Below are positions 20,440-44,241 of a stretch of 64,000 bases of DNA, piece by piece. Under the pieces are notes generated by a model. The model made no database searches. It saw nothing but the letters and a program-made list of their open reading frames with translations, and was not told the DNA's origin. How positions within the stretch are numbered: the first letter of the stretch is position 1; each line of letters begins with the position of its first letter. The DNA is from Haliotis cracherodii (lineage: Eukaryota), in contig NW_027266341.1 of NCBI RefSeq assembly GCF_022045235.1, forward strand, positions 7,626,001-7,690,000. Direction: 5' to 3'. The position numbers and the translations under genes are program-made.

Positions 20440-21480
20440 AATTTATTTAGGATTCATGACTTCATTACTTGTAGATACACGATATATGCCATTGTTCAAT
20501 TTTGGACATGTGACACCTGTCTTTTATTACTTGTAGATAAATGACACATATCATTGTTCAATTTTGGTCATGTGACACCTGTCTTTTAATACTTGTAGAT
20601 AAATGACACATATCATTGTTCAATTTTGGTCATGTGACACCTGTCTTTTAATACTTGTAGATAAATGACACATATCATTGTTCAATTTTGGACATGTGAC
20701 ACCTGTCTTTTATTACTTGTAGATAAATGACACGTGTCATTGTTCAATTTTGGTCATGTGACACCTGTCTTTTATTACTTGTAGATAAATGACACATATC
20801 ATTGTTCAATTTTGGTCATGTGACACCTATCATATATTACTTGTAGATACACGATACATGCCATTGTTCAATTTTGGACATGTGACACCTGTCTTTTATT
20901 ACTTGTAGATATATGACACATATCATTGTTCAATTTTGGTCATGTGACACCTGTCCTTTATTACTTGTAGATATATGACACATGTCATTGTTCAATTTTG
21001 GACAAGTGAAACCTGTCCTTTATTACTTGTAGATACATGATACATGCCAATGTTCAATTTTGGACATGTGACACCTATCAATATTTAGTTGTAGATACAT
21101 GATACATGCCATTGTTCAATGTAAGACTTTAATCACCAGTCAATGGTGAATATGAGACACAAGATACCTCAGGCTGTTAGTATTCAATTTTAGACACCTG
21201 TCATTTATTACTTGTAGATATATGACACATTTCATTGTTCAATTTTGGACATGTGACGCCCGAAAGATTTTTACTTGTAGATACATAATACATTTCTTTG
21301 TTCAATTTTGGACAAGTGAAACCTGTCTTTTATTACTTGTAGATACATGATACATGCCATTGTTCAATGTAAGACACAAATCACCAGTCAATAGTGAATA
21401 TAAGACACAGGATACCTCATGCTGTTAGTTTTCAATTTTGGACACGTGATGCCCGTCATTGATAAATTGTAGACACATGG
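20440..21480. repeat. 62-bp minisatellite (two ~31-bp subunits) in the gene A 3' region
   Basis: acttgtagat recurs at 20529, 20591, 20653... Confidence 0.93.
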
Positions 21481-21522: not shown

Positions 21523-22055
21523 TCATTGTTCATTTTTGTTCAAATGTATAACAATCGCTTCTGGTCTCACATGCAGAATGTGCTTCCGACTGACACTCGT
21601 GTCTCGTGATGCTGTTTCACGGTGACGCGTCTTGTCTTTGACAGAAGCTAGCCATCTTGAAATGACCGCCGACAAGTCCACCAGAAATATACTCCCAAAA
21701 ACCAAAGTTAGAAACGCACCACCGATGTACCCAATACCTGCCGCGGACAGACGAGTGTCTTGAATACTCACAAACTTTCTTTTGGATTTCGACGTCATGA
21801 TCGGGTCCACTGTAAGCTGCTTCTTAATCTCTTTTGCCTTTTCTTCCACTTCTTCAATTGTGATGTTCTTGCAAGTACATTGACACGCATTTGATTTACT
21901 TGTGACCTTCACCGTTGAGGTGACTTTTACCTTGACTGGTACGTCGCGAACCGTTGTTGCCCAGTCTTCTCTTGTGACCCGTGGGTCAGTAGTGACGTCA
22001 TCATTTACAGACGCTGTAGTTTCTGCAGCTAATGTCGGGGTGACGGTTGTAACGT
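21523..22055 (-). CDS. Gene A last exon: Thr-rich stalk, CxCxC juxtamembrane module, TM helix, cytoplasmic tail
   Basis: Within ORF 21523-22167; tttcaag|AC GTT; CQCTC...[36 protein letters not shown]. Confidence 0.85.
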
Positions 22056-22317
22056 CTTGAAACAAATAAAAATTAAATAGATCAAGAAATATATCTACTC
22101 TTCCTGAACACATGTTTACAGCATTCTTATATGTCTTACTACATACTATTTCATGATGAATATTCAATTTTTAATTTTGTATTCCATTACATGTAGGAGA
22201 CATTCATATTTTGTGTTTTACATTTGACAAGAAATGTAAAGTTGGCAGAGGTGAGGTGAAGTGAAATGGGGTTTAACGTCGCGTCCAAGATTATAGAACC
22301 AATATAGCGACGTGCAT

Positions 22318-22358
<41 letters not shown>

Positions 22359-25300
22359 AGTCCGGACTGATGCCGATTTATTGTGCAAGCCCACTTAGAT
22401 ACCATGCCGCAGTAGTACCATCTTTTAACGTCTTTTGGTATGGCGGAGCTGGGGATCGAACCCAAGACCTTCTGCTCACTGGGCAGATGGTCTACCACTA
22501 GACCACGGAGGTGGTGATAAAGTTGGCAGAAACAACATGGAGGCAAGTGCACGCATCAACAAAATAATGTTGTGGTACTCCGTAATAAGTCATACCAAGG
22601 CGTGCTTGACATAACCATAACCGCGCTGTATTACTATTACATACATCGAAGGGACCTTCGAAGAAGGCGGGTAAGTTTGCCGATAACCTCTTGTTTTCGC
22701 TCAAGTTTTCTTCCCGCTTTTCCTTTTTCCGAACACCTACACTTTTAGCCATTGCGTTAGGGTAGTGAAGTTGGTGAGCTGGCATCAAACATGGTGTCGT
22801 ACAGTAATTTTAGTTAAATTTCTCTGGAGGTCTACCACAAACAGTAGACACTACCATGATCGTTCGTCATTATGATTATGTGTTAAATAAATGTCAGCTG
22901 AAGTTCACACAAAGCACACGAGTTTCACATAAATGGATCGCCAGAACGGAAACCGTTTTAAAGATAAATATTAGGCCTCATTTTGTCGAGTTGACACGTG
23001 CATTCATTATGATGTCTGGAAATGGATTATGTCATCACGCATAAAGGGAAGCCTGAATCTTGTAAACAAAGGTGTGTGGTATTGTATTTGAAAAGAACAA
23101 ACAGACAATGGCAGGTACAGAGCAACGCGTTATCGATTTATCGATTTCCGATTTCCTTTCAGCACCAGCAACGTCTGTAGTCTTAAATAAATAGTACAAA
23201 TGACTGCGACCTCTACTCGGATCACATTGGGTGATGACCATTGACACGTCTTTTTTAAGTTGTCATTCGACCTATGTGTATATACTTTATATAAAATAGT
23301 ATCAAGTTGTACAATAATCCAACAATGACGAGGAGAATTACTGAGTCGAAGTGTCAGTCAGCACGACTCAAGACATAACAGGTAGATAAATCACACTACG
23401 CAAGACAACAGGTAGATAAATCACACTACACAAGACAACAGGTAGACAAATCACACTATACCAGACAACAGGTAGACAAATCGCACTACACAAGACAACA
23501 GGTAGACAAATCACACTACACCAGACAACAGGTAGACAAATCAAACTATACCAGACAACAGGTAGACAAATCGCACTACACAAGACAACAGGTAGACAAA
23601 TCACACTACACCAGACAACAGGTAGACAAATCACACTATACCAGACAACAGGTAGACAAATCGCACTACACCAGACAACAGGTAGACAAATCACACTACA
23701 CCAGACAACAGGTAGACAAATCGCACTACACCAGACAACAGGTAGACAAATCGCACTACACCAGACAACAGGTAGACAAATCGCACTACACCAGACAACA
23801 GGTAGACAAATCACACTACACCAGACAACAGGTAGACAAATCGCACTACACCAGGCAACAGGTAGACGAATCGCACTACACCAGACAACAGGTAGACACA
23901 TCACACTTCAACAGAAATCAAGTAGACAAAACACGCTACACCACATAACAGGTAGACAAATTACACAAGCCCTCACAATATGTATATTGGCCACCACGCG
24001 CCTGTGGTCAGGTATGTGAAGCTGGCCAAAATTATTTTTTTATACCTAATAATACTAACATTACATTAACATGTATATTTCCCTGATGCATATTTCTGCT
24101 TTGATTCAATAGTGATCTTTTCTACGCATCTGTTGTCTACATCGGTGAGCATGACTGTTCCTGTGTCCCAATATGCTGGGAACGTACATGTTAAACAATA
24201 GTTTCGGACTGACTCAGTTGTCAGTCCCTGACAGATGTAAGTCAATCTAACCCGACGTTGTCTTGGAGAGACGCTGACAGTTACCGATTGTCCTAACTAG
24301 ACCATGACAAAGACAGTTTCTTGACTGGAAGTGGTGGAGCAAAGTTGATTCAGTCCTCGATAATAATTATATATCCATTCTGTTATGATAGATATCCTGG
24401 AAGAATTTGCCAGTTTGCTTTCTTTAAGAATTGACCTCACCATCGCCATATCAACATTCTCTAACTTAGCAATTATTTCTATCGCTCGTAATGGAAATTT
24501 GATTTAACAGTTAACTTTAACTTCGTGCCTTATTAATCGGGCGGGAACCATGGTGGCAAATAGATACAGGGTTTTATAATAGAATGGAGAAATGATACAC
24601 TGCATAACCGAGGATGAGTTCTTGTTTAAAACAATCATTTAGCACATAAACTTCGTCAAGGAGGCGATGGTAACTGTAAGTGCACAGAGACTAAACTGTT
24701 AGATACAATGTACAAAAGAACTGTTGAGGGAAGGGATGATCTTACCCACGAAACATCTTTCTCCTGTGAAACGAGGTGGACAGATGCAGGTGTAGTTACC
24801 GACGAGGTCTTGACACGTGCCTCCATTTCCACAAGGTTCGCTCACGCAGTCGTTGACCTCGTCTAGGACAGATTATCGGGTTACTGTTATGCTTAACAGT
24901 ACTTCACAGTATGAAATCAAATTAAAGCACTACACTGTACGTTCAATGTTATTTATGTTGTGTTATTCATGTTGAGCGCCGCCGTCAGTGTCCATCTGTT
25001 TCACGGCGGGCTGCCTATTAGAGAGTCTTGGCCGGACAGACCAGTGGTTTATTCACGGATTCACGACAAGCATGGGGTACTAAATATTTATCCTGATCCC
25101 GAATTCCAAAGGGTGTTATGATGTTAAAGTTTATTTCCAAAAAAAATAATTAAGTGAGTGCGTGAATGTTTTGTTTTGGCAAATCAACCATATTCCAGCC
25201 GTACCGCAACAACGTTCATATATACGATATTGGGTAGCAGTGGTTGATATTTGATCCGTGACACAGATCTTAAAGGTATTCTTAACTAATTTGATTATTA

Positions 25301-28300
25301 ATAAGGAGTGTGGGGGGTGGTGTGTAGCCTCATTTGGAATATGACAAGATGGCAAATTATTATTGTGATCCAGAGAATCCGCAGTTATACCCAAGTGAGC
25401 ACCAAATAATACCAATATCCAATTTTCCAAATGGACATTTACACATTAGTTTCTCACCGTTTTCACAAAGTAGGCCGTTGAACCCTGCAGGACAGTAACA
25501 GCGATAGGAATCCCCAGATTCGTAGCAAGCTCCACTGTTTTCACAGGGAGCAGAGTTGCAGGCATTCCTCCCTGCAAGATAAGTCCAGTACTGCATGAGC
25601 GTTTGTTATCCATAACACAATAGGGAGATTGATTCACATGCGTCTTATAACTGAAATCACAGGCGGTTAATCTTCCAAAATTTTCGATCTAAAATATGTT
25701 AATTTTTAGAACATGTCCAGGGCAAAGCCCGAACCAGATAGTAAATATATTACCTGAAAAGTTGTCAAGAATAATTCCAGCCAGATACCCATAAGCTTTG
25801 AAGGTTATGAGGCCGTGTACCGTGGCTCCGAATCCTTTCCCGTTACGATGCGCTAAGGTGAGTTCCCCTTGTTCAACAGATTTGGAAGCAGTTGTCATGT
25901 CACACCCAGGGATGTCATGGAAGGAAGACTGTGGCATGAACTCCAAACCAGAGCTGTCATTTTTGGCCACAAATACTGACACATAAGGAACCAGGACATA
26001 CCCAGGGGTACTGGAAGATGTGATCAGATCCAGGACGTACCTGGACGCGTATCTTTCAACCGGGGGCATGATGGCCATGAAAGGATCTCCTTCTAACGCA
26101 GATCCATCAGCAACCTGCCCCTTTGCAAACTGCACCACCATGACTGGCTTGTTGCTTGTGATACATCTGTAATCCGTCTGGGTAAAATCCAAATCCTTAA
26201 AGGTCCTTGCGGACAAGATGTGTCTGGTACCGTCTGATTCGAAGACCACAGTGTCATGCTTTTCAGCAACAATCCGATACACAACACCGCACTGGCGACC
26301 AGCGATGGGGCCCAATGCATACTTCTTCCCGAATGCATACGTGGGGATTAGCATTTCAACGAGATTGTCTGGGAACTCCACCTTCTTTGGAACTTGGGTG
26401 AGAGGATTCCCAGAGAGGACAGCAACTGGTTTAGTTGCCTTGATTAGAGTACCAGTGATGTCTCGATCACAATACACACGCACTATATCCATCATCTGCA
26501 GCCGGAACGTGAGGATCGCTCCCTGCACCAGGCGCGTGCTGTTGCAGCTTGCTGTGGTGCTCAGTGTCACGTTGACAACGGTGTCGTTTTCTGTTGCAGC
26601 GATTATTACATGGCCTGAAAGTAAATGAATATTTTTCACGTCAAAGTTTCAAAGTAAACTATGTAAACTCATTCTCAGGTTTCGTCATGTGGTTTTATAT
26701 CTGTGATATCACTGTAAGTTCTTTTTATATTTGAAACAACAAGAGACAAAATTGATTGCCAAGTGTTCATTTCACTGTTCTGAGAAAGGCATTGTTTATG
26801 TGCCATGAAACAGCATATTGTTCTCACTGGCAGCCTGTGATTCTCCTGTATCACTACCAATGCCCTTGGAAGGCCTAACCAGCACACACTCAGGGTGTTG
26901 CATGGTCACTTCCGTGTTCACACATTACCAAGGCTTTATATTCATGTGCCAATAGAGGAACATTTAGATTATTAAAGAATGGCATGACATGTGGTTAGTG
27001 AAATGTGCAATACACAAAAATAATCAAAACCATACCCAAGGTAAAACGTTTAACTATTCATTGCTTGACATACTAACTATTACCAATGGGGCCTGCATGC
27101 TCCCATCCAGATGTATAACACAGTAGGTTTATCTCCATTCTACCATGACGGCAACAACGCTTTGAAAACTGCGCTCTCTTGTGCACAGGTCCGCAATCTT
27201 AGAACTTTCCGAAAAGTGGTCACAGGTAGTTAAATATGTAACAACTATTACTAAAGTTCAAGATTAAAAACACCATAGTCGTGAGTAAGTCATAATACGT
27301 GTTCAAATAATAAATTGTACACTGTGGACTGACTGTCGTTTTTCGGAATTTTGCGCATTTCTTGGAAATCGAACATGCCATCATTTCTATTGTAGGGGTG
27401 ACGGGTAATAGAAAAAGGTTTTAAAATGCTAAACGAATATAATTCTACAGCAAACTTTATGAATTAACATTCTATTATACATTAAACATGTGTAAGTGTT
27501 ATTAGTTAGTTAGCAATTTCCCCCAGTAAACAATGATAAAATCAAAATAAATGCCTCGATAAATGCCACCCCGAACTTCGAAGTGGCAGAACTTGACCTA
27601 CATCACGGTTACTCACACCTCAAAGCTGTCAATGGCTGACAATCTTGTGTTTATATTCTCCGTAAGGAGTTATAGAATGAAGCAAGATGACAACCCCGAT
27701 CTATGATGTGGTTCAACATTAACAGGTAGATTATCTGGGATTGATCGAGCCTGCTGGTACATCTATATGATTACTGAGTATGACTGAACAGCCGCTTTAA
27801 AGGCTTCAAACGAGCCGGATATTTTGAAACGAGGAATCTGCATGGTGTGACCTATTAATTTCAAGATTTCACGGATCCAAAGCCAAATAGTGAGAGAACT
27901 TAAGACATTTGTGTCCCAGAAATAGTGGATCGTGTATGATTTTCTTAATTGTGCGTGTTCTGAAATGAATTTCATCAAGTTTGATAAGCTGTTACTTCAG
28001 TTGGGACATTGTTTTCGTGGACTTTCGAAGGGGAGTGTTTTCTGATGGACTTTCAAATCCCCTCCTGCCAAATTCTAACGGTGGTGGTTGACGGAGATGG
28101 TAATGGATATCGATCAGAAAAAGAAAAAAACATGTTGTCATGAATAAAGTTTTTTCAAACAATTTTTAGAATGTTATATTTTACTTTCATTGTCGGTTGT
28201 TTCAATGAGGAAATAGTTTAAATTGTTCCGATTCTGGTCACCATAGAACATTTCTCTTACAATTTCATAAACATTTCATTTGTATGCAAAGGATATGCCT

Positions 28301-29971
28301 TCGTTAAATCTTTTAATGTCATAATCGAAGCAGTCAGGGTTGCGGCCTAGAACGCCCCAAACATCCGATATCAAAAAACCGTATTTCCTTTATTTGACGC
28401 TACACCATCTATTAATTTCGCGAGAGCCCTTGATTCGGCGTGTATTAGAGACCTGGCTGGTATTAGAGGAAATAAAGATTAATTTTACAGTTTATATGGG
28501 GGCGATCGATCGGCAGCCATTTTTTATAAATCAATATGTAGGCTTTCTATGTATTCATGCGCACATTTTTTTGTGAAAAGGCTTAATATACATGTATTTG
28601 AAAGGGGTTTCCGTAGCAAAAAGGAAACCTCTTTTTAACCAATCAGAATCAAGCATTCATCAATGTCATGGTAGAATATACAATATAAAACGACTACGAA
28701 CGGTAATGCTAAAAAGGATGTTCACATAAGAACTTCATCGCTTTCCTCCAAGGGAAATAAGGTACACCTGAGGTTAAATAGTAAGTTCGAATAATCCGTG
28801 TTTGGAATTCGTAAGTTCGAATAATCCGTGTTTGGAATTCGTGCCATGTGCCACGCAAATGTGTGTTGTCCCTATTAGGATGCGGCTTAAATAATGTTTA
28901 TAAGCGACATCAAAAAGTCATTCAATCATGCTCACCTCCTGCACCTGCGTGACTGTAATAGGTTACTGCAATGTATTCGTCCGACAGCGTATTTACAGGT
29001 AGAGCCAGAAATCCATCCATTGCATTGTACTGATTCACGTAGCCGTACACTGACACCTTGTTTGATGCTAAGATGTGGATAGCCTTTCTCTCCACCGCCA
29101 TGTTCGAAAACACCGTGGTCTGATAAGGGAAGTAAATATGTCGAGAACTTCCGGCAGAAAGGAAATGTTCAGTGTCATTTTCCCCGTCCATCATAACGTA
29201 GACTTTGACGTCCGTCTCTGACGTGATTACCAGGAGATTGACGTTGTCATTTGTACCGCTGTCGGGAAATGCTACGATGAAATTAGTTCCTTTCTGGTCT
29301 ATTTGTACACCACAAATACCTGAAATATATGCAAAACATATTCATGCACACGCGCGATAGTATTCAGTTAGCATACAATGCAAAGTATGAACAGTATTCC
29401 AGTTATATCATGGCATGTCAGCTTGATACGGGAGTACCTCTCGAAGTGATTCATGCCTCAGACGTTTACCACTTCGGTGAAAACCACGAGCAAGGGTATG
29501 GTACATAAAAACCAAGAAATATAATCAATGTGGTAATTTGCATCACAGTATACAAAATCATTTAGTTATAATGACAAATTGTCACCTCACACGAGGGGAA
29601 ATTAATAAAATTTAATATATTCTGCATTGAATATTAATGTATACAAATTTGTTGAATGATTTGACCCATTACTGAATGACATTCACTTTTTAACAGTACC
29701 AAATGCACCAAAAGCACGAAGGGCTACTCCATGTCATCCGAACTGTGAGTACATGGAGCTATACACCTACCTCGGATAATAGCTTGAAGAACCGACGTAG
29801 CCACAACCATTTGTACCTAAAATATAATTCTAAAAATCAATTTACAAATTGTAAACATATGATAAATTATTGTGAAGAACTAACCAGATATATTAAAACA
29901 GTTATATGAAATGCGTATCAACAGCTTGAAAATTGACACAGACAGAATTCCTAACTTACCAAATAGAACAT
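21523..29971 (-). CDS. Gene A: IgGFc-binding (FCGBP N-terminal-like) domain + 2 EGF + TM type-I membrane protein, ~688 aa, 7 coding exons
   Basis: Exons 29960-29971, 29771-29816, 28936-29319, 25754-26614, 25458-25571, 24746-24862, 21523-22055. All introns are GT-AG, phases are compatible, total 2067 nt = 689 codons. Starts [20 protein letters not shown] (signal-like), then [44 protein letters not shown] (IgGFc_binding motifs). Confidence 0.85.
22250..22517 (-). mobile_element. SINE family C with internal deletion and (CA)n
   Basis: TSD taaagttggcaga. Confidence 0.85.
23370..23960. repeat. 30-bp minisatellite (~19 copies) in gene A last intron
   Basis: ccagacaacaggtagacaaatc[a/g]cactaca. Confidence 0.97.
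24746..24862 (-). CDS. Gene A exon 6, calcium-binding-type EGF domain
   Basis: [38 protein letters not shown] read directly (too short for the ORF track); ctag|AC...G|gtaag. Confidence 0.9.
25458..25571 (-). CDS. Gene A exon 5, EGF domain
   Basis: [36 protein letters not shown]; phase 1-1, 114 nt. Confidence 0.9.
25754..26614 (-). CDS. Gene A exon 4, IgGFc-binding domain core
   Basis: Within ORF 25689-26639; [11 protein letters not shown]...[18 protein letters not shown]...[10 protein letters not shown]...GDPFM...AYGYLAG; canonical splice sites. Confidence 0.92.
28936..29319 (-). CDS. Gene A exon 3, N-terminal part of IgGFc-binding region
   Basis: ttcag|GT ATT TGT...; [13 protein letters not shown]...[15 protein letters not shown]...[15 protein letters not shown]; ends G|gtgag. 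Confidence 0.85.
29771..29971 (-). CDS. Gene A exons 1-2 (29960-29971 MFYL; 29771-29816 [16 protein letters not shown]), signal peptide
   Basis: ATG TTC TAT TTG|gtaagt; tttag|GTA...CGA G|gtaggt. The 46-nt phase 0->1 exon has the same size as gene B exon 2. Confidence 0.65.
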
Positions 29972-31330
29972 TTTGCCGTGTTGTCTAAAGCGCCAATCCG
30001 AGAAGTGTGTTTGTTGCACATTTCATCCTACTTTTGTTCATTACGTGGTCTTTCATCAGTCAAGTGATGCTGGTGTAAATATGTACATATGCCATTTTAT
30101 GATAAATATTGCAATTACCAGAAAAGCTACAGCGAAATACGCTTCCATGTGTGTGTAGTTGTCTGTCAATGTCAGGAGTTGATTACGTCCCCCGAGCACT
30201 GTGTGTTTGTTTTATTGTTGTGGAATCTATATCAAGCTGACATGCAACCGTCATGTGCTGTCATGATTAATGATGCACTGTTATTGATGAAATAATAATA
30301 GCAATATGTACCATTATTGAATTATAACTATAAGCCACTGTACGAATTTCTGTACTGTATTTTGAAATACACCATGAAAATACACTGTTTATCTCAGTGA
30401 AGTGCTCCATATAATGTACATCCATTATAGTCTTCTTAGCGTATTGAATGTGGCTGCGAATTTTTATGAATTTTACACACTAAAACTGATATTATGAAAC
30501 CAATACAACTACCACAATCCAACAACGCTTTCTACACCTGCTACGGCCACAACCCCGCTACTCACCATTTGTCTAAGGCACCACGATTCGCTGTACAGAA
30601 TTGCGTCCCTTAGATATTAGGACCTAAGACATACTTCGCACTTTCCTTCCACATCAAGCTGATACGCCGTGAGATAACTGAAATACTGACCAAAGCGGCG
30701 TTAACCCTAAGTTAACACTCACTCACTCACTCACACATGTGGAATTGATATAGAGTAAATCATACTGATATCCCTTGCCATTTGAATGTGTCTTCACAAG
30801 AAAAACACACAACCCTAACTGATACATGCATGTAAATTAAAACGCAGTAAAATATACATGAACCACATCTGTGTTTATGACACAACAAAATAAACGTCAT
30901 GGAAATCAACTATTGTCATTTAATTTATTTCATGTGCATATAAAATGGCCAGACCTCAATTATTTCCAGAGAAATATGATATTGATCTATACTCATTGAA
31001 ATGAAGAACCATATTGATAACAGGAACAACACTCAACACATCTCTCGGCGTTCGTCCGGCCAGCGTGCCATTGGCGCTTTTTAGATGTGTACATTGCACA
31101 TTGCATGTCAGTTTGTCATTAGCAACTGGCAATATTCCGACGTACTCGGGCAGCTGACAAATTTATGTATTTACCTTTTTGAAGGGAATGGGAGATATAT
31201 TTGCAGAAATTAACACCAGAAAACGATTTTAGGCAATGAGTTCAAATAAATACATTGATAGCCTATCATGCAGAGAGGGGTCCAACACTGAACAATATTC
31301 CTCAGATGAGGGAAGAGACATTTCTCAAAG
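29972..31330. promoter_or_regulatory. Putative bidirectional promoter/5'UTR region between divergent genes A and B
   Basis: 1359 bp between the two inferred ATGs; TATAAAA at 30939; ATAAAATGGC on opposite strands at 30091-30100 and 30940-30949. Confidence 0.5.
30570..30735 (+). mobile_element. SINE family D, internally deleted, in the A/B intergenic region
   Basis: gtctaaggcaccacgattcgctgt...gagataactgaaatactg...(actc)n. Confidence 0.7.
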
Positions 31331-31779
31331 ATGTCTCTTGTTGTTCATCACAGTGTAAGTATACTAGCCATTATTATTAGAGATGCCCATATTTCATATT
31401 TCACAACTGTGTCTTGAATTCAAATTTCGATGTGCTTCTATACTGCATTGATAGATGCTGTTATGAGACGTGCATATTCTTCTGTTATTCAGATTACTTT
31501 TACAAAAATGTATGTTTAACGTCGTATTTATTAAGTTTTATATACTAGGGGCGTATGGCCCCTATGGAGTTCTTGAAATAAATAATAAACTTTGACTGCC
31601 AACTTTCAAATTTCGTGATATTGTGGACAAGAAATGTGCTTGGTGGACCATTTTTACTGTCCCTTATGCCAAACTTTACATTGTTCACAAACATTTTGTT
31701 CCATTTCTTAAACATACCATATTATCTTTGCAGGCAACAATTCTTCTACTGATGTCTTTAATGTTGGAACTTGGAAATG
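31331..31779 (+). CDS. Gene B exons 1-2 (31331-31354 MSLVVHHS; 31734-31779 ATILLLMSLMLELGNG), signal peptide
   Basis: ATG...AGT|gtaagt; ttgcag|GCA...AAT G|gtaagt; hydrophobic leader. Confidence 0.7.
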
Positions 31780-34700
31780 GTAAGTTACATTTGTTTTAGT
31801 ACATAAACAGTGAAATAAATTGTTGCGCCGAATGTAATTGCTTCGTGTATTACGTATTACGTTTGTTAGGCGTTTGCAAACGCCATAATTATTTTCTTCA
31901 TTACATATGTTTCAAATTAAATTACAGGTGGTTTAAACAACAACGGCAAAGAGTTTGTCCTGACCTTCATGGATAGTCTACGCTACAATTATGACCTTGA
32001 ACTTTTCATTGCCACGTCAGAGGAGACGGAGGTCAATGTGAACGTCACGGCCCCAAAATGGCCATTGGCCAATCTAGATCAATCGTTTACAATAAGATCC
32101 GGGGAGGTAAAGCAATTGTTTATATCAAATTCATTGCGAAATATTGGTACAGCTATCTCAGGTAAAGGCATATACGTGTCTGCTGATAATAATATAGTGG
32201 TGTACGGTGTCAATAAAGAGGACTATTCCAACGATGCTTTCCTAGGCTTACCAACTGATGTCCTAGGGAACCGTCACTTCACTGTCAGCTATTCACCGGC
32301 CTTCAGAAAATGTGAAGTTGTCATTGCAGCAGTTGAGGATGACACAAGTATTCGAATCAAGCTCCCTGTATCCGACCCAGCCGTCAGTGTCAACTACCAA
32401 GGACTGCTTTATGGAAATGGGGGCGTGATTAACATTGTCCTGGATCGGTTCAGTACCTTCCAATTTCAAAGTGTAGGCGACTTGACAGGATCTCGAATAG
32501 ACTCAGATAAACCCGTGTCCGTCTTCAGTGGGAACATGAAAACCAATATCGGGACAGGAAGTACCCAAGACCACCTAGTTGAGCAGATACCACCAGTTGA
32601 GGCTTGGGGTAAGCGGTTCGCAACAGTTCCAACCCCTTATAGAACTACAGGGGATTACTTCCGGTTCATAGCCAGCGAGGATGACACTGTTGTGAACGTT
32701 ACAAGACATGGAACCCACAGCTTAGCTAACGCAGGGCAATATCTTCAACTCCTCATACCATCGAATGAATTCAATCTCGTCTCCAGCAACAAGGCTATAC
32801 TGGTAGTGATGTTTGTCCTCAGTCAGTTGACCCAATTTGACGAAGAAGAAGCTGATCCGTCCATGATTCTGATCCCTCCTATACAGCAATGGGCGTCTGA
32901 CTACACATTCGCAACACCTAAGTTTTCATTAGGGTCATATGAGAACTTCTTCATGTTGGCCATCGACTCTGTGGAGACTTCTGGGCTGATGCTGAACGGC
33001 AGGCCAATGGTTCCTGAAGGCAACTGGACGTCAATTCCCGGAACCAATCTTGTAGGCGCCTTCGTGTCTCTTCCAGAGGGGGTACACAGGGTCCGACACA
33101 TCTCCCCTATTGTCTTATTTGCTGGCTACCTGTATGGAAAAGCCTTATCAGAAACTTATGGATTCCCCACAGGGATGAGACTAGCACCAATAAATGCGGT
33201 AAGCACTGAATTGCTTTACAGTAATTTATTCATTTTCACTTTTTCACTATTGTTTTGGGTTTTAGCCCCGGCAGAAAATTGAGACGTTATATATTTATAA
33301 GAGATCCTAGAGATTTCGATGAGTCACAAATTCAAACAAAATTTAGATTTAAGTATTTCAAATCAAATTTACTTCAATGAGCTTAAGAACAGTTGTCGCA
33401 CAAAAATGGAATCATGACGTAAGTTAACCCTGATGCAATCTCGATTTAAAAAACTGATCTCAGTTATATACTTATCATCTTAATTCAGTGACCATTGCGT
33501 GTGATTTCAATGTAACAGTCTTGAACCAGTCCACAGCATTTCAGGACTTACATCAAATATTTTTAAAAATCTGGACTTATTTCGACTCATCGTTATATTT
33601 GAATGCTAACATGATAATTCTTCAACATCAGTTTTGTTAATTATCCATGAGCAAAGGAGCTTACGGACCTAACAATATCTCGGTATAACCGAAAGGCACA
33701 TATCTCGTGTCAGACACATCTGGATTTGTCATCAGTGCGCATGGAATAGGACGACGTATCACTTTAACCGATGTCGTTATATACGGACTTGACTGACTTA
33801 GTTCTGATTACCAGTATTATTTAAAAATATATACTATTTCTTTCCTTTTTGTTTATTGATCCCTATTTGGATATAAAATCACGTTAATATTTTGGACATA
33901 ATATCAGATTCTTATATGTTCTCCTTAACTCCTTGTTCAAAACCATGAAATAATTTTATGTATTGATATAATACTTGGTCTTGGTAATGCTAATTGCTCC
34001 TTCCTATGTTTGGCGTTCTCTGTTTACCAATCCCTATGGAGAAACACAACACAGATATAATATATGATTCATGGTTATGTAAATAAATAATCCTTACTAT
34101 TACAATTTTACCGCAGTTGTGTACGGCAACTTCATCTACGGACGGAGACGGGGTTGACAACGACTGTGATGGTTTCATAGACGAGGAGCTGTGTTTACCG
34201 GGGGATGATGGTAGGAACTTTTGTAAACATACAACTTAGGTAAACAAGTATAGACATATTGAGTGGTATACAGTCAAACCTCGTTGTTACGAACTCGTGG
34301 GGACCTGGAAAAAATCGACTTATCCGGGCTTTCGAGAGGTTAGCAGAATTTTATGCTTAATTCAGATACTTTTGACTCCCAAATGAGTTCGAGACAACCG
34401 TGTATTCGACACATCCAAGTTCAACACAACGAGGTTCGACTGTGGTGCCAATATCTTATATATGAGAATGAGTCAGTGAGTGGTGTTTTACGCCAATTTC
34501 AGCAATATTCCCGCAATATTACAGCGGGGAACACCAGGGATAGGATTCATACACTGTATCCATAGTCGGGAATCGAACACGGTTTTCAGTGAAACGAGCG
34601 AACGCTTTAACCACTAGGCTTCTCCACCGCCAAAGTAATTCAAAACCTACTTTATTTGTCTGTAAACTCAAAGGTAATGAATTAGATCAATCTAGCAGTT

Positions 34701-37700
34701 GATGATTGCCCTAATTGTGTCAATTTGACTAATTTCAATGCCTAGACTCTACTGAAATTTGGTAACAGATCAAGGCGATAGCTCATTTTCAATCCAATTC
34801 GACATATTAACAATAAATAGTCAATCCTAAACAATAAAAGTTAGACCAACGCTGAATTCTGTGTGTGATACGGAACCCTGATAACAATAATCGAGTTTGT
34901 CTTTATTAAACACACAGTTCATTTTGTTGTCATAAAGTACGGGTTCTCAATATTTTCAATATTTCTGTTATCCGGTTATCATAGAAATGCTATTAATGTC
35001 ACGTATATACAATTCTTAGTTTCAAACGTTTCCAATAACGTCATATTACCTCTGACTGTGCGGTGTGAGCGAGTGATATAGTAACAGTTTTTCAGTTAAA
35101 TCACGACGTGGCACCTTACTGGTGGAGGGAAGTCTGCGCGAGGTTCATGTAGGCCGTTGACCATTAAACAACCTAAACAATAGACAGCTACGCCTTTGTA
35201 GACAAGTAAAGTAAAGGGGGACATCCTTGCTTCATGCTGACAGCATGGATAGCATGATGTGCCATCGACCATGACTCACTTGCTTGAGAGCATTGCATGG
35301 ACACAGGAGAACCAATGTCTCTGTCCTTGCTGTATACGAAACTGTTCTGTTATGAAGATAAAACGGAAACACCGATATACTGATATGGTAATGATCTATT
35401 GAAGGTAATTCTACTCCTCGGAAGGGGCGGTCGGGTGGCCTAGTGGTTAAAGCGTTCGCTCATCACGCCGAAGACCCGGGTTCGATTCCCGACATAGGTA
35501 CAATATGTGAAGCCCATTTCTTGTGTCCCCCGCCGTGATATTGCTGGAATATTGCTAAAAACGGCGTAAAATCATACTCACCCACTCTACTCCTCGGTGG
35601 TCATAATCCATTATCTTTGTGTGGATAGCGACTTTGGCCTATACCGAAGTTATATAAATGATATTGTGGATTCATTATAACCGGAACTAATCTTCATATG
35701 AAATAGATGATGACGACATGGATGGTTACCTGGATGAGGACTGCGCCAAAACTATTCCAGGTAAATGTTTTCAAATGTTAAAATGACTTCAAGCCGATTT
35801 CTCCAAATGAAAGGTATAAGGACCCGTTTCAGTCAGCAAGATGTCAAATTGCATAATTTAAGAATGAGCAAAAGTGCAGAAATTTTACATCGCGAATTCG
35901 AATAAGAAGAATGGGATATAACAACAATGTTCAACATTTGCAAATTTTGGACATTCAACAACATGAAATGTCGAGGTAAGGATGAAATATAAAATACTAT
36001 AATTAAAAAGGACAAATAAGCTTATTTTAGGGGTATTATTAGATTCTTACTTGTGTAGATTTTAGAATTTCTCTCGATGAGATATCGTCTCTTTTAACTC
36101 ATTTAAGCCATTTCTTGTGTCAGTCATTTGAACATGCTCAATAAACGTCATAACAAAGGTTCTCTTAATTTTGAAGTTTGACATTTCCAGCATGCCAAAA
36201 CGGGCCCGTATCACATCCTATGTTCCTGGAGGCCTAAAGACGCCGCCTGTGACCTGTGGGAATATTTTGACATTGATAAAAGGGTCGAATACTTTGAGAC
36301 GTGCGCCAATTGAATTGTAGTATTTATACACTCCGGTTCGTTAATGGTTTATAATGTAAAAAAAATCCATATTCTGATTTTGACATTGGTCAATGTTTTA
36401 TTTGTTTTGTAAAAGTTGAACAGAATTCAGATTTTAATGTTTTACCTTTCACCGTGCGAAGATATCGGTTATGAATAATTTCAAGTACATTCACATTGTG
36501 TAGTCTTAAACATAATCATATCAATAAATGAACCGATTTATGGACTACATTAGCATAGAGCTCTCACAAAGAGGTCATTGGAGGTAAGAAAATAATTATG
36601 TGTGCGGTGAGGGTGGATGCGTTCAGTGTGTGAAAAAAGCACCCTAAACATTATTTTCAGTATATTTACCATGTATTTTAATGTCGCGTTGTCGCGCTTT
36701 AAAAAAATGAAGCAAGTGTTAGTTTTTGCTCCTTAATGTGGAACGAAAAATAATTTCACAATTCACAATCGATATACAATTTGAACGTAAAAACTAGATT
36801 TCACAGATTCTCACACACAAATACAGGATACCAGGCAATCCTTTATCCATCCATCCATTTTAATCTCCGAATTTTTGCCATCAATGTCAAATTACCTTTA
36901 CAAGCGGTGACAAATGGTGCACGTTTGTGTGCCGTTGTTTTAAAACTGTGATGCTTCGACTTTTTCTATGGGCCTAACGGATTCGACAATCTGTCCTTGC
37001 TTCCACACAGTTGACGGTTTCTGGTCTGACTGGGGTGCGTGGGGAGACTGCAGCCAAGACTGTGGGGAGGGGATGCAGACCCGTACAAGATCGTGTGACG
37101 CTCCCGCCCCAGCCTTCGATGGTCAACCGTGTGCAGGAGACAATAACGACACTCAACTATGTGTAATCTCTTCCCCGTGTTACAATTCGGCATTAGGTAA
37201 TATAACCTGCGTTTAAACACTAACTTTATTGCACCGTTTTTCAGTGAAACCCTAATCGTCAGGACTAACACATGCCAGCATTAACGAATCGTTAGTTAGT
37301 CCCCTCAGTAAATACATAATACCTCCTAACAACATACTGATTTTTCCACATAAATATAAACCGACCTAACGGGATTTCTATGCATGTTAAGTACATATAA
37401 GTCATTAATTTTGGACTGGTATGATACCAGGTTTGACGTTTGGAGATAAATGACATCGTTCAGTATTTACCATATCTGCTTTTTCTGGACACCATCATAT
37501 CTTTTGTGATATACATTACTCTAAAGAAGTACAAGAACATCTGATTCCTTCATATGACGATACTTAATCAGTCATGGATTATACATAGGAAAATGAAAAG
37601 ATCGGGCATAACAGATTAACTATTATATTGATAGAATCCGGTGTTCTTTAACTTCTTTGAGTAGAAAACCATAACCTGCAACGAAACTTACCAGCTTTAC

Positions 37701-40178
37701 ATTCTTGTCCTCACATGTGTGTGGTAAATGTTGCAAATCGGTCATTCAGATCATAACTCCCTAACACCGTGGATCTGTATTCATCATGAGGAAAATGTAT
37801 CCCTTCCTTATCATCACGCTTGGTGAAAATTACTCTTGTATTCCCAACATATATGTGGTAAGCGTCTGCATATAACCTTACACTTCCAGGTACCTTTTAC
37901 AGATCTTTACAAGACCAGGCGGTTTCGTCCCTTCCAGAACCTCCTTTTGCTTCAGTGCCTGAGTTGTTTGGAAACAGTGATGTCATTTCGACAACCGACA
38001 GAGATACAAAGTATAACACTGAGATGCGCACGCATGTATTTGAGACTGGGGAGTCTCAATCCTGGGCAGTTGCAGAATCTGGACAAAGCGAGCTCATGAC
38101 TTCAGTTGGTTGGGATGGATATTACCCCACGTCAGTGTCGACACAGAACACTGGGTCGTATAGGTCTGAACGTTCATTCCCTAGCCAAACGGGAATCATC
38201 TCATCTCTCAGTGGAGACGCTTATCATGACGCGGATATATTGATACATCCAGAAACAGACAGGACCATCGTTGGGAACGTGCTTCAGACAGTAACTGTGT
38301 ACTCTTTATCTGCGTCGCATCAAAGTAGTCTGAGATCAAACGGTATAGAATCACTAGATGCGTACCCTTCCCCAAATACGATGAGTAGATCGGTCAGTTC
38401 GATGAAATCACCCCATGATCTTAGAACGGACGCCTTTGGAGAACTTTCGTTACATACTGGAGATGTTCGCAGAAATACACACTGGGAAATGTCATTTGGT
38501 GAAGTTTCATTCTCGGGTACATCTGTAACATATTTCACATATAGCGACAGGTATGCCACTACTAGACTCGATGGTCACAGTACTGTTGAGGTAAACGAAC
38601 TGTATCCTACCCCCGTTGCTGAAACTTTATCAAACAGTTTTGGAGTGGAAGAAACAGACATCTTGAAACCAATCTCCAGTGGGCTTGTTGATGTGTCTCA
38701 GTCCATCGCTCAGATTACAGAAACTCCCGCTGCTGTCATCAGTGCTGAAAGTGCTCATATTGTCACATCTGGTCCTTGCACTGTCAGCCATGGTGCAGAA
38801 GCACCATCCCCATCTTCATCGTTGGTAAGGGTTCCACTTTGTTTGTTTTCACGCACTGTGATGTGACCAGTGTGAAGTAGGATTTTCGCCGTTGAAAGCA
38901 ATACGACAGCAGTGTGATAGCAAATACAACCTTAGATGACATAGACTGGTACTTGGCAGAAGTACTCCTGTACGGCGTCAGACCATAAACAGTTACTTTT
39001 TAAGAAAAGAGGTGGGTGCATCCTGTAGGAAAGGTCATGCCTATCCTTTTCGGGAACATCTGGTGTCATCACTGATTTTCAGTAACCAACTCATACACCG
39101 CTATTTTTCTTTTTACGCCCAGTAGAACTTGTTTCGGCAGATAATCGAGCCTGGTTATTATCTGACATTGACGTTTGTTATTTACCACAAGTAACACCAA
39201 AAATAAAGCGACTAATAAATCTGACATATTGTAATTTTTACAACTCTGACACCAAATATTCCCAATAAAAAGTGAATCGTATCCCACGCGAAGCAGCCTT
39301 TCTGACACATTTTAGCGTTACCCTTTTTCCAAAGTTTAATATATGAATATAATCATTTTTTCACTTCTAATTTCCTTCGTCATCGATTCTTATGAATGTA
39401 TACTCCTCCATACAATGAACGCGAATGCATTGTATTGTGGCATTTGTTGGATTCATTGAATGGATCAACGGAAAGCAGCTGAATTATCACCTGTGACACA
39501 CGATGCCACCGTATACACCAGCTGCTGGTGTGGACATGATATGTCAAAGGCCAAAGCCATCTGCAATTAGTCGACTTCATGTATACAGTTCAATGCTCAT
39601 ACACTTAACACTTTCCATCTCCACGATGGAGGCGTGACAGGCCTTTGGCTCAAAATCCTGCCTCACACATGCGGGTCCTCGCCGCCTTGGCTGAAATCCT
39701 ACGCATATCTGGTATGGCGGATGTTCAAGAGGCTGTCGTGGTGGTCTGTACGTAACGAGCCATTGTTATTGGCTCTGGTGGTCTCCGTATGTGGGAAAGT
39801 CATTTGTTGTCCGATGGTGTTGACCTAATCCTCTTACTTCTTCTCCAGCAAGCAAAGTCTCCTGTGCGGCGTCTGTTATCCTCAAGCTGTATATGTCCGT
39901 GCTCCAAGATCACCAATCTGAACAAGGATGAACTGGATGAAGTGACAAGGAGAATTGGGCAGAGGCTTGCTTTGGATAAAGCCAACCTGTCCGCTACTAT
40001 CAGGAAGCACATCAGTGTCTGGGACGCAAGAAGTTCCTCCCGGACAATAGGAGTAGTTGGGGTCAGTCTCATCATTGGGGTCATCTCCGGGGTCATCCTG
40101 CTGGACGTTGGAGCACTGTTCAGAGACTTCAAAACTCTCTACAGAGACGTGAGGACCTTGTGTGCTTCTAAGGTTTGA
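31331..40178 (+). CDS. Gene B: IgGFc-binding domain + acidic DNDCDG repeats + TSP1 + Ser/Thr stalk + TM type-I membrane protein, ~979 aa, 8 coding exons
   Basis: Exons 31331-31354, 31734-31779, 31928-33198, 34117-34210, 35707-35760, 37011-37196, 37890-38824, 39849-40178. All GT-AG, phases compatible, 2940 nt = 980 codons. Confidence 0.85.
31928..33198 (+). CDS. Gene B exon 3, IgGFc-binding (FCGBP N-terminal-like) domain
   Basis: NNGKEFVLTFM...SNDAFLGLPTDVLG...DLTGSRIDSDKPVSVFSGN...DHLVEQIPPVEAWG...ADPSMILIPP...TYGFPTGMRL; ends GCG|gtaagc. Confidence 0.93.
34117..34210 (+). CDS. Gene B exon 4, DGxDNDCDGxxDE (MopE-like putative metal-binding) motif
   Basis: ccgcag|TTG TGT; LCTATSSTDGDGVDNDCDGFIDEELCLPGDD; G|gtagg. 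Confidence 0.85.
34271..34442. mobile_element. pogo/Tigger-like MITE
   Basis: TA|cagtcaaacctcgttgt ... acaacgaggttcgactg inverted termini; related remnants at ~43350-43436 and ~44830-44916. Confidence 0.7.
34470..34632 (-). mobile_element. SINE family A, diverged
   Basis: Homology to consensus. Confidence 0.75.
35422..35585 (+). mobile_element. SINE family A
   Basis: TSD tctactcctcgg. Confidence 0.92.
35707..35760 (+). CDS. Gene B exon 5, second acidic DxDGxxDEDC motif
   Basis: aatag|AT GAT; DDDDMDGYLDEDCAKTIP; G|gtaaat. Confidence 0.8.
37011..37196 (+). CDS. Gene B exon 6, thrombospondin type-1 (TSP1) repeat
   Basis: VDGFWSDWGAWGDCSQDCGEGMQTRTRSCDAPAPAFDGQPCAG (WxxWxxW, CSxxCG, RxRxC). 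Confidence 0.92.
37890..38824 (+). CDS. Gene B exon 7, Ser/Thr-rich low-complexity stalk
   Basis: 935-nt open frame bounded by ttccag|GT and TTG|gtaagg; phase 1->0 joins the TSP1 exon to the last exon in frame. Confidence 0.7.
39849..40178 (+). CDS. Gene B last exon: CxCxC juxtamembrane module, TM helix, short tail
   Basis: ctccag|CAA GCA; CICPC...IRKHISVWDARSSSRTIGVVGVSLIIGVISGVILLD. Confidence 0.87.
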   Translation, partial: QAKSPVRRLLSSSCICPCSKITNLNKDELDEVTRRIGQRLALDKANLSATIRKHISVWDARSSSRTIGVVGVSLIIGVISGVILLDVGALFRDFKTLYRDVRTLCASKV

Positions 40179-41559: not shown

Positions 41560-42430
41560 ACAACTTGTCATAAATTTGATTTCTTAAGGCCAAAATGGTT
41601 GTTCAAATTACTGGGATGAACAGGTTTACCTTTTGTTAACTTATTAAGAGATGTTCAAAAGGAGAAAACCATCCGAGAGGTGGGAGAAGAAAAAAATCAA
41701 CACATAGAGACACCCGGTCATTGTTGAAACTTGTAAGTGTAAAAGAAGGAAGTCTTTACATGATAGTTCCTCACTACTTAACCCGTCATCACAAGTGACT
41801 CCATCAAAGTGGACAATACAAAGGCTTTTACATGGAAATGGTTACCGGAGACGGGTAGTCAAAAAGAAAACATCTCCTCTCAAAATCGGTTCAAGCGGAG
41901 GGCCTTTCGCTAGATCCCATCTACACTGGACTGTCAAACAACATTTTTCCGAAGTTATATTTGCAGGAGAAACTCGGGTTGCAGTAGGTGAAGATCAGAA
42001 AGTTCAGGTTTGGAGAACTAATGAAAAACAGTGGAAGCCGAGATGCCTTGGTGTGAACAAAGAACTGAGTGACATGTTTTGGGGCTGCGTTTGTTTTAAA
42101 AGGTGTTGGTACCACTGTGGATGGTCATCAAAAGCCATCATATGGCCAGTTATTGCCAAAGTTCCAACTGACAAAGGATGTCTTTTTCAAGAGGATAATT
42201 GCCCTGTAGAGAAGCAACTCAGTGGAAACACGACAATTATATTCAGACTATGATATCGCCCCGAGTCCCCAGACTGTAATATCATAGAAGATGTGTGGAG
42301 AACTCCGAAGATTAGGCTGACGAGACAGTTACATGAAATCAAAACCAAACAGGACCTCATTGACCAGGTTATTGACATCTGGACGTCATTGACTACAGAG
42401 TACTTAAAGCCACTATATGCCAAAGAGAAT
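41560..42430 (+). mobile_element. Decayed Tc1-like transposase
   Basis: TIQRLLHGNGYRRRVVKKK, HLHWT, VIFAGETRV, MFWGC, FQEDNCP, PESPDCNIIEDVW. Confidence 0.8.
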
Positions 42431-44241
42431 GTGACAGGTACTCTTGGCAAATGTCTGCATTTACTAATAACTTCATTTTCACGTAACGTAATAATCTGTG
42501 ATCACAATCAAAGCAGTTTTACGGCGGCCATTGTGTGAACTTAATATGGCACCTGAGTGCTCCAATGATTACAAGAGTGTGAACATTGTCTGGTTATTGT
42601 GACCATATGGCTGCATACAATTCTTTTATCTAATAATGTAGCATATACTGTTTGAAATCAAGCAAGGAATAAAAACATTTGTTGTTTGACATCGTGTATA
42701 TTCCCTCAAGAATCACCAGCTACCATCATTTTACATACGACCTACACGAAACGACACTATTAATGATAACACCTCAAGTATGAAAACACATTTCGTCAAT
42801 GTTAATACAACAGATTACCGGTATTTGGCCGGAACGTACAACACCACGGCATGCCATGACGCCATGGCGCAGTGGATGACGTCACAGGTGTCCACGACAT
42901 TTGAACCGATGGAAATAGGAATGCAGAGAAATCCACTAAGTGTTCACACGTTTTTGTACGTTAGAATACTACGCTAGATATTCTTATAACGGAGTAGACA
43001 CCAATTCGTTCTACGAACTGTTTTCGGCCCTGTAAGCAATTTGGAACAGACCAACCAGTGATTGATATTATGAGCAACGTCTCACGACGTCGGAGTAGGA
43101 TGGCACACAATCTACCAAGCCATCAAGCCCAGTAACCCGAGCAATTTAGTCGCCATTTACAAGCAGAGATAACCATCATACCTATCCTCTGAGATAACAT
43201 CTCGTTCGTGACATATTGTGTATATATTCCCGCCAGTAACCATATACATGCGCTGAAACAACGCTACCATACCTGTCATAATATATGGCCTTAATAAGAT
43301 AATACACAATTCTGGTAGGTAATTCGTAATGAGCATATATACAGCATGTATACAGTAAATGGCCGGGACTAAAAAACATTTCGTTATATCCGGCAGGTGG
43401 TTATAAGCGTGTTCGTTATGAACGTAGTTTACTGTATATAGTTAAGGTGATGGCAAAATAACTCGTCGGTCTCATTTTGGAGAATCTAAGAAGAGTGAAC
43501 AAACCTACACGACTGATATACATATCGATAAAATTGAAAACAATATGATCTCAGAGTATGTAAGAAAACAGGAGGAATTAAACAGAGCATCATCAAATGG
43601 TTCATAGTGTCATGGTTGAATGGAATATAACATCCATTTAGCGGTGCCAACTTTTAACGGTTCTATTAATTTGATAGCTTACGCTGACACACTCAAATTT
43701 AAAGAAAGTTTCCATAACTGAGGAACCAACCAGAAGAGTATTTTGCATGTAGCTTTTCAATCCCTTCCTGAATATTGTACACAGTCATCTCGGACATAAA
43801 GAAATTCACTTTGAACACAAAGTAATGGCCACATTCCGAGCATCACAGTGGTTTATATTTCTATTAAGATAGATCTTTCCGTGCTGCATCCAATGTAAGG
43901 TGTATACGACACATTTCTTTCGTTTTCAACACAGTTTAATAATCAACTCATAACCTTTTTTTCAAATTCTGTGCTGAAAGGCGAAAAAGTGTTTTCCTGA
44001 TTTTTGCGTATACCGACAAAATATAATTCATAATCTGATACAAATTTGGTTGTACATGAATAGTGATGTTTTAATGTGTTTTTAAACTTGTGTACTAAGT
44101 TTTACATCTACGCTTTTGAATACATAAAATATACAAAAATATATTGTGCTAAGATCACTTTCAGAATTCAGAATAAAATACAAGGTTTTAAAAAGTCAAT
44201 ATTTTCTAAATGTCACCAGTTCTTCACTAAAATGTCCAAAT

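What the first reader, a model, noticed from the sequence alone, without database searches (positions are those of the whole stretch)
21523..40178. Head-to-head pair of paralogous IgGFc-binding-domain membrane proteins with swapped middle modules
Seen: genes A (minus) and B (plus) diverge from a 1.36-kb spacer. Both encode signal peptide + IgGFc-binding/FCGBP-N domain + ... + the same juxtamembrane module + TM. The middle cassettes are unrelated: A has EGF + cbEGF + Thr-rich stalk; B has two acidic DxDCDG motifs + TSP1 + a 311-aa Ser/Thr stalk. The EGF and TSP1 modules sit in phase 1-1 exons. Known: vertebrate FCGBP is a secreted mucus protein built on VWD/TIL repeats, and none are visible here. 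Inference: an inverted duplication followed by exon shuffling gave a co-regulated pair of membrane-anchored mucosal or immune receptors or adhesins, perhaps acting as a heterodimer. I know of no description of this paired system.
Basis: partly seen in the sequence, partly recalled or inferred. Interest (0 to 1): 0.75.

Follow-up and report, generated by a model that had tools for sequence, protein, structure and literature searches.

The report
Abalone IgGFc-domain surface proteins, unnamed anchor
Two real, back-to-back abalone genes encode predicted cell-surface proteins with a head domain known from a gut-mucus protein; they belong to two old, separate subfamilies rather than being one duplicated gene with swapped middles, and both end in an unnamed membrane anchor found in thousands of other proteins, mostly molluscan as far as checked.

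Summary
Both gene models hold. A (688 aa) and B (979 aa) have open frames and GT-AG introns and match RefSeq abalone proteins. Spliced contigs from public runs join exons of each, and the H. rufescens orthologs carry consecutive gene ids. The proposed origin fails its own test. The IgGFc domains are only 26-28% identical and fall in different clades: A with gastropod IgGFc+EGF proteins (Littorina, other Haliotis genes), B with bivalve and brachiopod domains (about 50% to bivalves). AU tests reject A+B as sisters (p=0.031) and A's clade plus B (p=0.0004). The shared juxtamembrane module is not pair-specific: it matches 2,553 protein clusters carrying lectin, kringle, F5/8, WSC, Ig or IgGFc heads, and A's copy is closer to a Littorina protein (50%) than to B's (30%). 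Both architectures exist in other molluscs. Best reading: two old members of a molluscan family of single-pass IgGFc proteins, left adjacent in a gene cluster, likely tethering mucus, matrix or microbes at epithelial surfaces. Co-regulation and heterodimer are untested. The under-described part is the anchor: no Pfam, PDB or literature match was found.

The parts
29960..29971 (-). Gene A coding exon 1 (4 codons)
   Evidence: orthologs P0114 and P0075 also have 4 residues before exon 2
29771..29816 (-). Gene A exon 2, 46 nt, phase 0-1, predicted signal-peptide core
28936..29319 (-). Gene A exon 3, first part of the IgGFc/FCGBP_N head
   Evidence: joined to exon 4 in contigs of X1 and X2
25754..26614 (-). 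Gene A exon 4, IgGFc_binding PF17517
   Evidence: E 3.5e-43
25458..25571 (-). Gene A exon 5, EGF domain, phase 1-1
24746..24862 (-). Gene A exon 6, EGF domain with calcium-binding consensus (consensus recalled), phase 1-1
   Evidence: (EGF E 2e-10; EGF_CA below cut-off)
21523..22055 (-). Gene A last exon: 54-aa Thr-rich stalk, unnamed anchor module (aa 566-646) with predicted TM helix (aa 625-643), tail of about 50 aa
29972..31330 (.). Spacer between the modelled start codons (1,359 bp), holding an interspersed repeat at about 30565-30740
   Evidence: high depth
31331..31354 (+). Gene B coding exon 1, predicted only
   Evidence: best of 38 candidates; not part of the RefSeq proteins P0001 and P0068
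31734..31779 (+). Gene B exon 2, 46 nt, phase 0-1, predicted signal-peptide core
31928..33198 (+). Gene B exon 3, IgGFc/FCGBP_N head in one exon
   Evidence: E 7e-66
34117..34210 (+). Gene B exon 4, acidic DNDCDG motif (weak PF11617 match, below cut-off)
35707..35760 (+). Gene B exon 5, second acidic motif (DDDMDG), phase 1-1
37011..37196 (+). Gene B exon 6, TSP1 domain, phase 1-1
   Evidence: E 1.5e-14; joined to exon 7 in X2
37890..38824 (+). Gene B exon 7, 312-aa Ser/Thr-rich stalk
39849..40178 (+). Gene B last exon: unnamed anchor module (aa 881-964) with predicted TM helix (aa 937-955), tail of about 23 aa

Best explanation
A and B are two spliced abalone genes from two anciently separated subfamilies of molluscan IgGFc-domain (FCGBP_N) proteins, likely left head-to-head in an old gene cluster, and each is predicted to be a single-pass surface glycoprotein that likely holds its head above the epithelium to tether mucus, matrix or microbes. 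Shown: gene structure, domains, subfamily placement, and wide use of the same anchor under many different heads. Inferred mechanism: the signal peptide routes the protein to the surface; the FCGBP_N head binds (ligand unknown; IgG binding is disputed even for human FCGBP); EGF or acidic-motif/TSP1 units and a probably O-glycosylated stalk act as spacers; the anchor (CxCxC, short helix with hydrophobic heptad-like spacing, conserved polar linker, TM helix ending in an invariant Asp) probably bundles copies or docks a membrane partner. The tails (about 50 and 23 aa) have no recognised domain, so any signalling would go through a partner. The middle modules are inherited subfamily traits, not products of a swap between these two genes.
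For: IgGFc identity A-B is 26% in the trimmed alignment, while B is 44-53% identical to most bivalve domains. Careful tree of 31 rows: A groups with Haliotis EGF-array paralogs and Littorina P0204 (100/99); B groups with bivalves and Lingula (100/100); A+B is one clade in 0 of 200 bootstrap trees (also 0 of 200). AU p=0.031 and p=0.0004. Anchor identity A-B is 29.6%, rank 148 of 154 carriers for A, against 50% to Littorina P0204, which has A's architecture. Scallop proteins P0043, P0045 and P0140 have B's architecture. The acidic motif follows the head in 48 of 65 animal proteins scored, including Lingula and Watersipora repeats (set mostly found with B). The anchor profile hits 2,553 clusters at E<=0.001; heads among 84 longer hits: 14 C-type lectin, 13 IgGFc, 3 kringle, 3 F5/8, 1 each WSC, Ig, TSP1 and ephrin-receptor-like. 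Tandem FCGBP_N repeats of Lingula and Watersipora lack the anchor. Published: invertebrate FCGBP_N occurs in varied architectures, mostly without VWD (PMC4948705).
Against: No function was tested; the adhesin role rests on anatomy and on mucus and adhesive associations in the literature. A sits on a long branch (1.49-1.68 changes per column), one search warned of long branches meeting, and the AU test shares that weakness. Taxon sampling was capped and biased to B's relatives. A and B share a short first exon plus a 46-nt phase 0-1 second exon, consistent with common ancestry of the whole 5' end. No third family member lies in the 64-kb window, so the cluster is inferred from ids and contig lengths, not from coordinates.
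Confidence: 0.65

Rival explanations
1. Functional pair despite different ancestry: a shared bidirectional promoter co-expresses A and B, and their anchors join them in a hetero-oligomer that shows two different heads.
For: Start codons 1,359 bp apart. Orthologs have consecutive ids in H. rufescens. Pieces of both genes are present in 4 of 4 runs laid (the runs were picked with a stretch holding both genes, so this is not a co-expression test). The anchor has conserved cysteines and a predicted helix.
Against: H. rufescens is 94-98% identical, so adjacency there shows little depth. The spacer holds an interspersed repeat. The two anchors are among the least alike in the sample. B's first exon is unconfirmed.
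Confidence: 0.2
2. One reading: one inverted duplication produced A and B, exon shuffling then replaced the middle, and A evolved fast enough to hide the sister relation.
For: Same overall layout; identical exon-2 length and phase; phase 1-1 EGF and TSP1 exons; A has a long branch.
Against: AU p=0.031 and p=0.0004; 0 of 200 bootstrap trees; both ends of A point to Littorina P0204 rather than to B; intron positions in the head and before the anchor differ; no DNA similarity.
Confidence: 0.07
3. Chance neighbours brought together by rearrangement in the abalone lineage, with no cluster history and no functional link.
For: Distant clades; flanking sequence in the window holds an unrelated SSF transporter gene and a transposase remnant; no third member in the window.
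Against: Two IgGFc+anchor genes within 1.4 kb, and further members on the same chromosome or scaffold in H. asinina and H. rubra, fit an old cluster better.
Confidence: 0.08

Closest known systems
Invertebrate FCGBP_N / Pfam PF17517 IgGFc_binding proteins (Lang et al. 2016, PMC4948705; results section read, supplementary Fig. S5 seen as text rows only)
   Same: N-terminal FCGBP_N behind a signal peptide, no VWD, varied partner domains; Fig. S5 lists many Crassostrea, Aplysia and Lottia proteins, some labelled TSP_1, Ldl_recept_a, GCC2_GCC3 or CBM_14.
   Different: The section read treats them as secreted and mentions no membrane anchor or genomic arrangement; A and B have a predicted TM anchor.
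Vertebrate FCGBP (PMC11796319, passages read)
   Same: FCGBP_N domain at the N-terminus.
   Different: Secreted, built on VWD assemblies with GDPH cleavage and a C-terminal disulfide dimer; none of this is in A or B. That paper says IgG binding was not reproduced, the N-domain's role is unclear, and the human N1-N2 fragment runs as a monomer on non-reducing gels.
Uncharacterised molluscan IgGFc+anchor proteins: scallop XP_033759663.1, XP_069103857.1, XP_060074080.1 (B type); Littorina XP_070196633.1 and Haliotis 'fibropellin-1-like' XP_067663983.1, XP_046555995.1 (A type)
   Same: Same head, same middle class, stalk in several, same anchor.
   Different: Number of TSP1 or EGF repeats and stalk length; orientation of their neighbours was not seen.
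Biomphalaria GRC and PTC2 clusters of single-pass transmembrane genes (PMC7494358, passages read)
   Same: Clustered single-pass surface proteins in a gastropod; an analogy for an immune role.
   Different: Those are hyper-polymorphic, and the term IgGFc does not occur in that paper's main text; A and B are 85-98% conserved across abalone species. Whether they carry the anchor was not tested.

Membership tests
FCGBP_N / PF17517 domain proteins | PF17517 match above the curated cut-off | tested here: met
   148.4 and 222.9 bits against a cut-off of 25.6
FCGBP_N / PF17517 domain proteins | N-terminal position behind a signal peptide | tested here: inconclusive
   Position met; hydrophobic N-termini by hydropathy only; B's exon 1 is predicted and RefSeq starts at Met15
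Vertebrate/chordate FCGBP | Multiple VWD-C8-TIL units | tested here: not met
   No VWD, C8 or TIL match in the 10 exon frames scanned; the models leave no room for them
Vertebrate/chordate FCGBP | Secreted, no TM helix | tested here: not met
   Hydrophobic helix near the C-terminus in both; prediction only
Vertebrate/chordate FCGBP | IgG or mucin binding | not testable with these tools
   Needs a binding assay; disputed for human FCGBP (PMC11796319)
Pair born of one inverted duplication | A and B are each other's closest paralogs in the head domain | tested here: not met
Pair born of one inverted duplication | A and B are each other's closest paralogs in the anchor | tested here: not met
   29.6% identity; rank 148 and 142 of 154
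Bidirectional, co-regulated gene pair | Divergent orientation with close starts | tested here: met
   1,359 bp between the modelled ATGs; transcription starts unknown
Bidirectional, co-regulated gene pair | Arrangement conserved in relatives | tested here: inconclusive
   Consecutive ids in H. rufescens only; orientation and distant species not seen
Bidirectional, co-regulated gene pair | Correlated expression | not testable with these tools
   Contigs give presence, not level or tissue
Unnamed molluscan anchor module | CxCxC, helix, conserved S/R/S/D/R/S linker, GxxG, TM, terminal Asp | tested here: met
   Both score E<=1e-27 with a profile from the family; no other copy in the window; column conservation

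The most novel reading that the evidence does not exclude
The unnamed CxCxC-helix-TM anchor is an undescribed mollusc-wide oligomerising or adaptor-binding platform onto which lectin, kringle, F5/8, WSC, Ig and FCGBP_N heads have been shuffled thousands of times, building a combinatorial surface-receptor repertoire. The head-to-head A/B genes would be a co-expressed pair that assemble through it, giving a natural test case.
Probability: 0.12. Interest if true: 0.72.

Novelty: new variant of a known kind. Interest (0 to 1): 0.32.

Why it matters
The pair itself is an ordinary case of old paralogs sitting together, and it does not document a fresh duplication-and-swap. What deserves attention is the anchor: about 85 residues, several near-invariant positions, 2,553 sequence clusters, and no Pfam family, PDB relative or paper found in my searches. 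It links many lectin-type and IgGFc-type predicted surface proteins of molluscs. If it oligomerises or recruits one common partner, it would explain how short-tailed mollusc surface proteins act. Membrane-bound FCGBP_N proteins also offer a simple system for finding that domain's ligand, which is unknown even in humans.

Tried and rejected
No whole genome is held for this window, so family size and synteny could not be counted directly. Complex prediction of A's anchor with B's anchor: no answer (score 0.02, mark 0.34, alignments not used); it is no evidence either way, and only the anchors were tried, not the heads. Structure searches: no match for the anchor model in PDB by Foldseek (pTM 0.41, mostly helices); no significant PDB sequence match for the anchor profile (best E 0.16) or for B's head. 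A first anchor model from 6 sequences was poor (pLDDT 66.9). ESM Atlas: only unnamed, mostly molluscan clusters (0.92-0.94) and no usable named hit. The run search listed no holder on record as RNA; three runs of the 'same species label' held next to none of the words, which is no evidence on expression. Joints for A exons 1-2 and 6-7 and for B exons 1-5 and 7-8 were not visible in the cut tables, and A's last exon lay outside the stretch laid. No H. asinina ortholog of B, no H. rubra ortholog of A and no H. cracherodii record of A turned up in three capped searches; this is not evidence of absence. The profile search was crowded by EGF proteins. Literature: 10 searches found no description of this pair or of the anchor; searches returned 0 papers; subscription journals are largely missing. 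Oyster and limpet 'IgGFc-binding' adhesive proteins (PMC6337334, PMC7333891; passages read) are described with VWD/EGF domains and may not carry FCGBP_N, so I did not count them as relatives. Earlier-findings look-ups by sequence, place and first word set were empty.
Full report
Observation. I rebuilt both genes from the sequence. A lies on the minus strand in 7 coding exons (29971-21523, 688 aa) and B on the plus strand in 8 (31331-40178, 979 aa). All 13 introns are GT-AG, both frames are open, and the start codons are 1,359 bp apart. Pfam confirms IgGFc_binding in both, two EGF domains in A and TSP1 in B, and finds no family for B's anchor frame and only a sub-cut-off chance match for A's last exon. 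The EGF and TSP1 exons are phase 1-1. Small corrections: only one of B's two acidic motifs has the Cys (DNDCDG, then DDDMDG), and B's stalk is 28% Ser+Thr.

The genes are real. B is identical over 965 aa to XP_071088487.1 of Haliotis cracherodii, 94% to H. rufescens and 88% to a shorter H. rubra protein. A is 98% identical without gaps to H. rufescens XP_046359812.2 and 85% to H. asinina. In four public runs guessed to be RNA (4 of 21 listed), single contigs carry A exons 3 and 4 side by side in X1 and X2 and B exons 6 and 7 in X2, and pieces of both genes appear in all four. These runs were found with a stretch holding both genes and contigs give no levels, so this shows transcription in relatives, not co-regulation. 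B's first exon is only the best of 38 candidates; both full-length RefSeq models start at Met15, so B's signal peptide and the exact spacer need read support.

Arrangement. Saccostrea has two such genes with consecutive ids. The window itself holds no third member; downstream of B lies a sodium:solute symporter gene.

Test of the proposed origin. The heads of A and B are 26-28% identical. B is about 50% identical to many bivalve proteins. I built three trees from domains I chose, dropping partial and redundant ones: 59 rows from the 125 domain hits, a 27-row subset of these, and 31 rows that add IgGFc+anchor proteins. In one search, A groups with Haliotis EGF-array proteins, Littorina P0204 and P0210 (100/99), and B with bivalve and Lingula domains (100/100). 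A+B forms a clade in 0 of 200 bootstrap trees in both careful runs. The AU test rejects A+B (p=0.031) and also A's whole clade joined to B (p=0.0004; this group was named after seeing the tree). Caveat: A has a long branch, and one search warned of long branches meeting; with Littorina added, the warning no longer named A. The other end of the protein agrees independently: A's anchor is 29.6% identical to B's, rank 148 of 154 carriers, but 50% to Littorina P0204, which has A's layout of head, EGFs, Thr-rich stalk and anchor. Scallop proteins P0043, P0045 and P0140 have B's layout. The acidic motif follows the head in 48 of 65 animal proteins scored, 8 more lacking a complete domain end (set biased to B's relatives), including Lingula and Watersipora, so it is an old appendage of the domain. 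The middles are therefore subfamily traits that appear older than the split of vetigastropods from caenogastropods (A type) and of gastropods from bivalves (B type). Shuffling did occur in the family: several close bivalve relatives of B end in an LDL-receptor-type repeat and a hydrophobic tail instead of the anchor.

The anchor. A profile from 6 sequences hits 2,553 of 1.84 billion cluster representatives at E<=0.001 and 1,019 at 1e-10. Of the best 150, I scanned the 84 of 200 aa or more, leaving out B's own record: 14 C-type lectin, 13 IgGFc, 3 kringle, 3 F5/8, 1 each WSC, Ig, TSP1 alone and ephrin-receptor-like alone, 1 sub-cut-off DUF7283, and 46 with no family. No curated family covers the anchor. 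All 10 looked up are molluscan, and the Atlas clusters shown are unnamed and mostly Mollusca where known; the full range is untested. Across 156 aligned stretches, C4 and C6 are 97% conserved, R51, G58 and the Asp after the TM 100%, and D49, R42, S53, S46 and L30 94-98%. AlphaFold2 with 57 sequences gives helices at 16-30, 38-44 and 52-97 (pLDDT 87.5, pTM 0.41). There is no PDB match by sequence or fold. Such conserved polar residues beside and within a TM segment suggest a binding surface; that is inference.

Mechanism. Most likely each protein is a type I surface glycoprotein whose FCGBP_N head is lifted on spacers and a glycosylated stalk (8 and 5 N-glycosylation sequons) and tethers mucus, matrix or microbes; the anchor probably bundles copies or docks a partner, since the tails of about 50 and 23 aa have no recognised domain. 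Structure and kinship are shown; location, ligand, oligomer state and tissue are inferred.

Comparison with what is known. Lang et al. 2016 (PMC4948705; results section and passages read) report 176 invertebrate FCGBP_N proteins in varied architectures, mostly without VWD. Their Fig. S5, seen as text rows only (the drawings and one supplementary file were not visible), lists many oyster, Aplysia and Lottia proteins, some with TSP_1 or Ldl_recept_a. PMC11796319 (passages) says IgG binding by FCGBP was not reproduced and the N-domain's role is unclear. Clusters of single-pass genes with immune roles are known in Biomphalaria (PMC7494358, passages), an analogy only. Ten searches found no account of this pair or of the anchor, within a library that lacks most subscription papers. 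Earlier notes of this scan on membrane-bound or tandem FCGBP_N proteins in other organisms were not checked and are leads only.

Verdict. The duplication-and-swap story is not supported, and co-regulation and heterodimer are open. A and B are members of the FCGBP_N domain family, not FCGBP orthologs, in a membrane-anchored variant that is common in molluscs but apparently undescribed. Interest 0.32, mostly for the unnamed anchor.

Noticed in passing
window 39879-40136 (+) and 21649-21894 (-); proteins P0116-P0264: The unnamed CxCxC-helix-TM anchor matches 2,553 clusters with diverse heads and no Pfam, PDB or literature match; it merits its own family definition.
   Followed up: partly
window about 47781-59266 (-): Multi-exon sodium:solute symporter (SSF) gene pointing towards B's 3' end; 4 exon frames match PF00474.
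   Followed up: partly
window 11861-12774 (-): Broken Tc1/Tc3-like transposase remnant (HTH_Tnp_Tc3_2); similar-looking pieces at 41708-42535 and 48396-49321 had no Pfam match or were not scanned.
   Followed up: partly
window 20464-21368 and 23377-23966: Tandem arrays: 62 bp x 14.6 just past A's stop codon and 30 bp x 19.7 in A's last intron; another low-complexity array near 59534-60183 seen in frames only.
   Followed up: no
window 30565-30740, 34470-34640, 35423-35590: Copies of a very abundant interspersed repeat, one inside the A-B spacer; they dominate depth in the laid runs.
   Followed up: no
P0013, P0010, P0014, P0039, P0044 (C-termini): Bivalve relatives of B end in an LDL-receptor-type repeat and a short hydrophobic tail that looks like a GPI signal (by eye), a second way of tethering the same head.
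   Followed up: no
P0162, P0248, P0221: Proteins with IgGFc head, ephrin-receptor-like repeats and the anchor; P0162 and P0248 (Saccostrea echinata) have consecutive gene ids.
   Followed up: no
window 61033-61551 (-) and 7562-7807 (-): Frames that look like retroelement remnants by eye; no Pfam match at E 0.001.
   Followed up: partly
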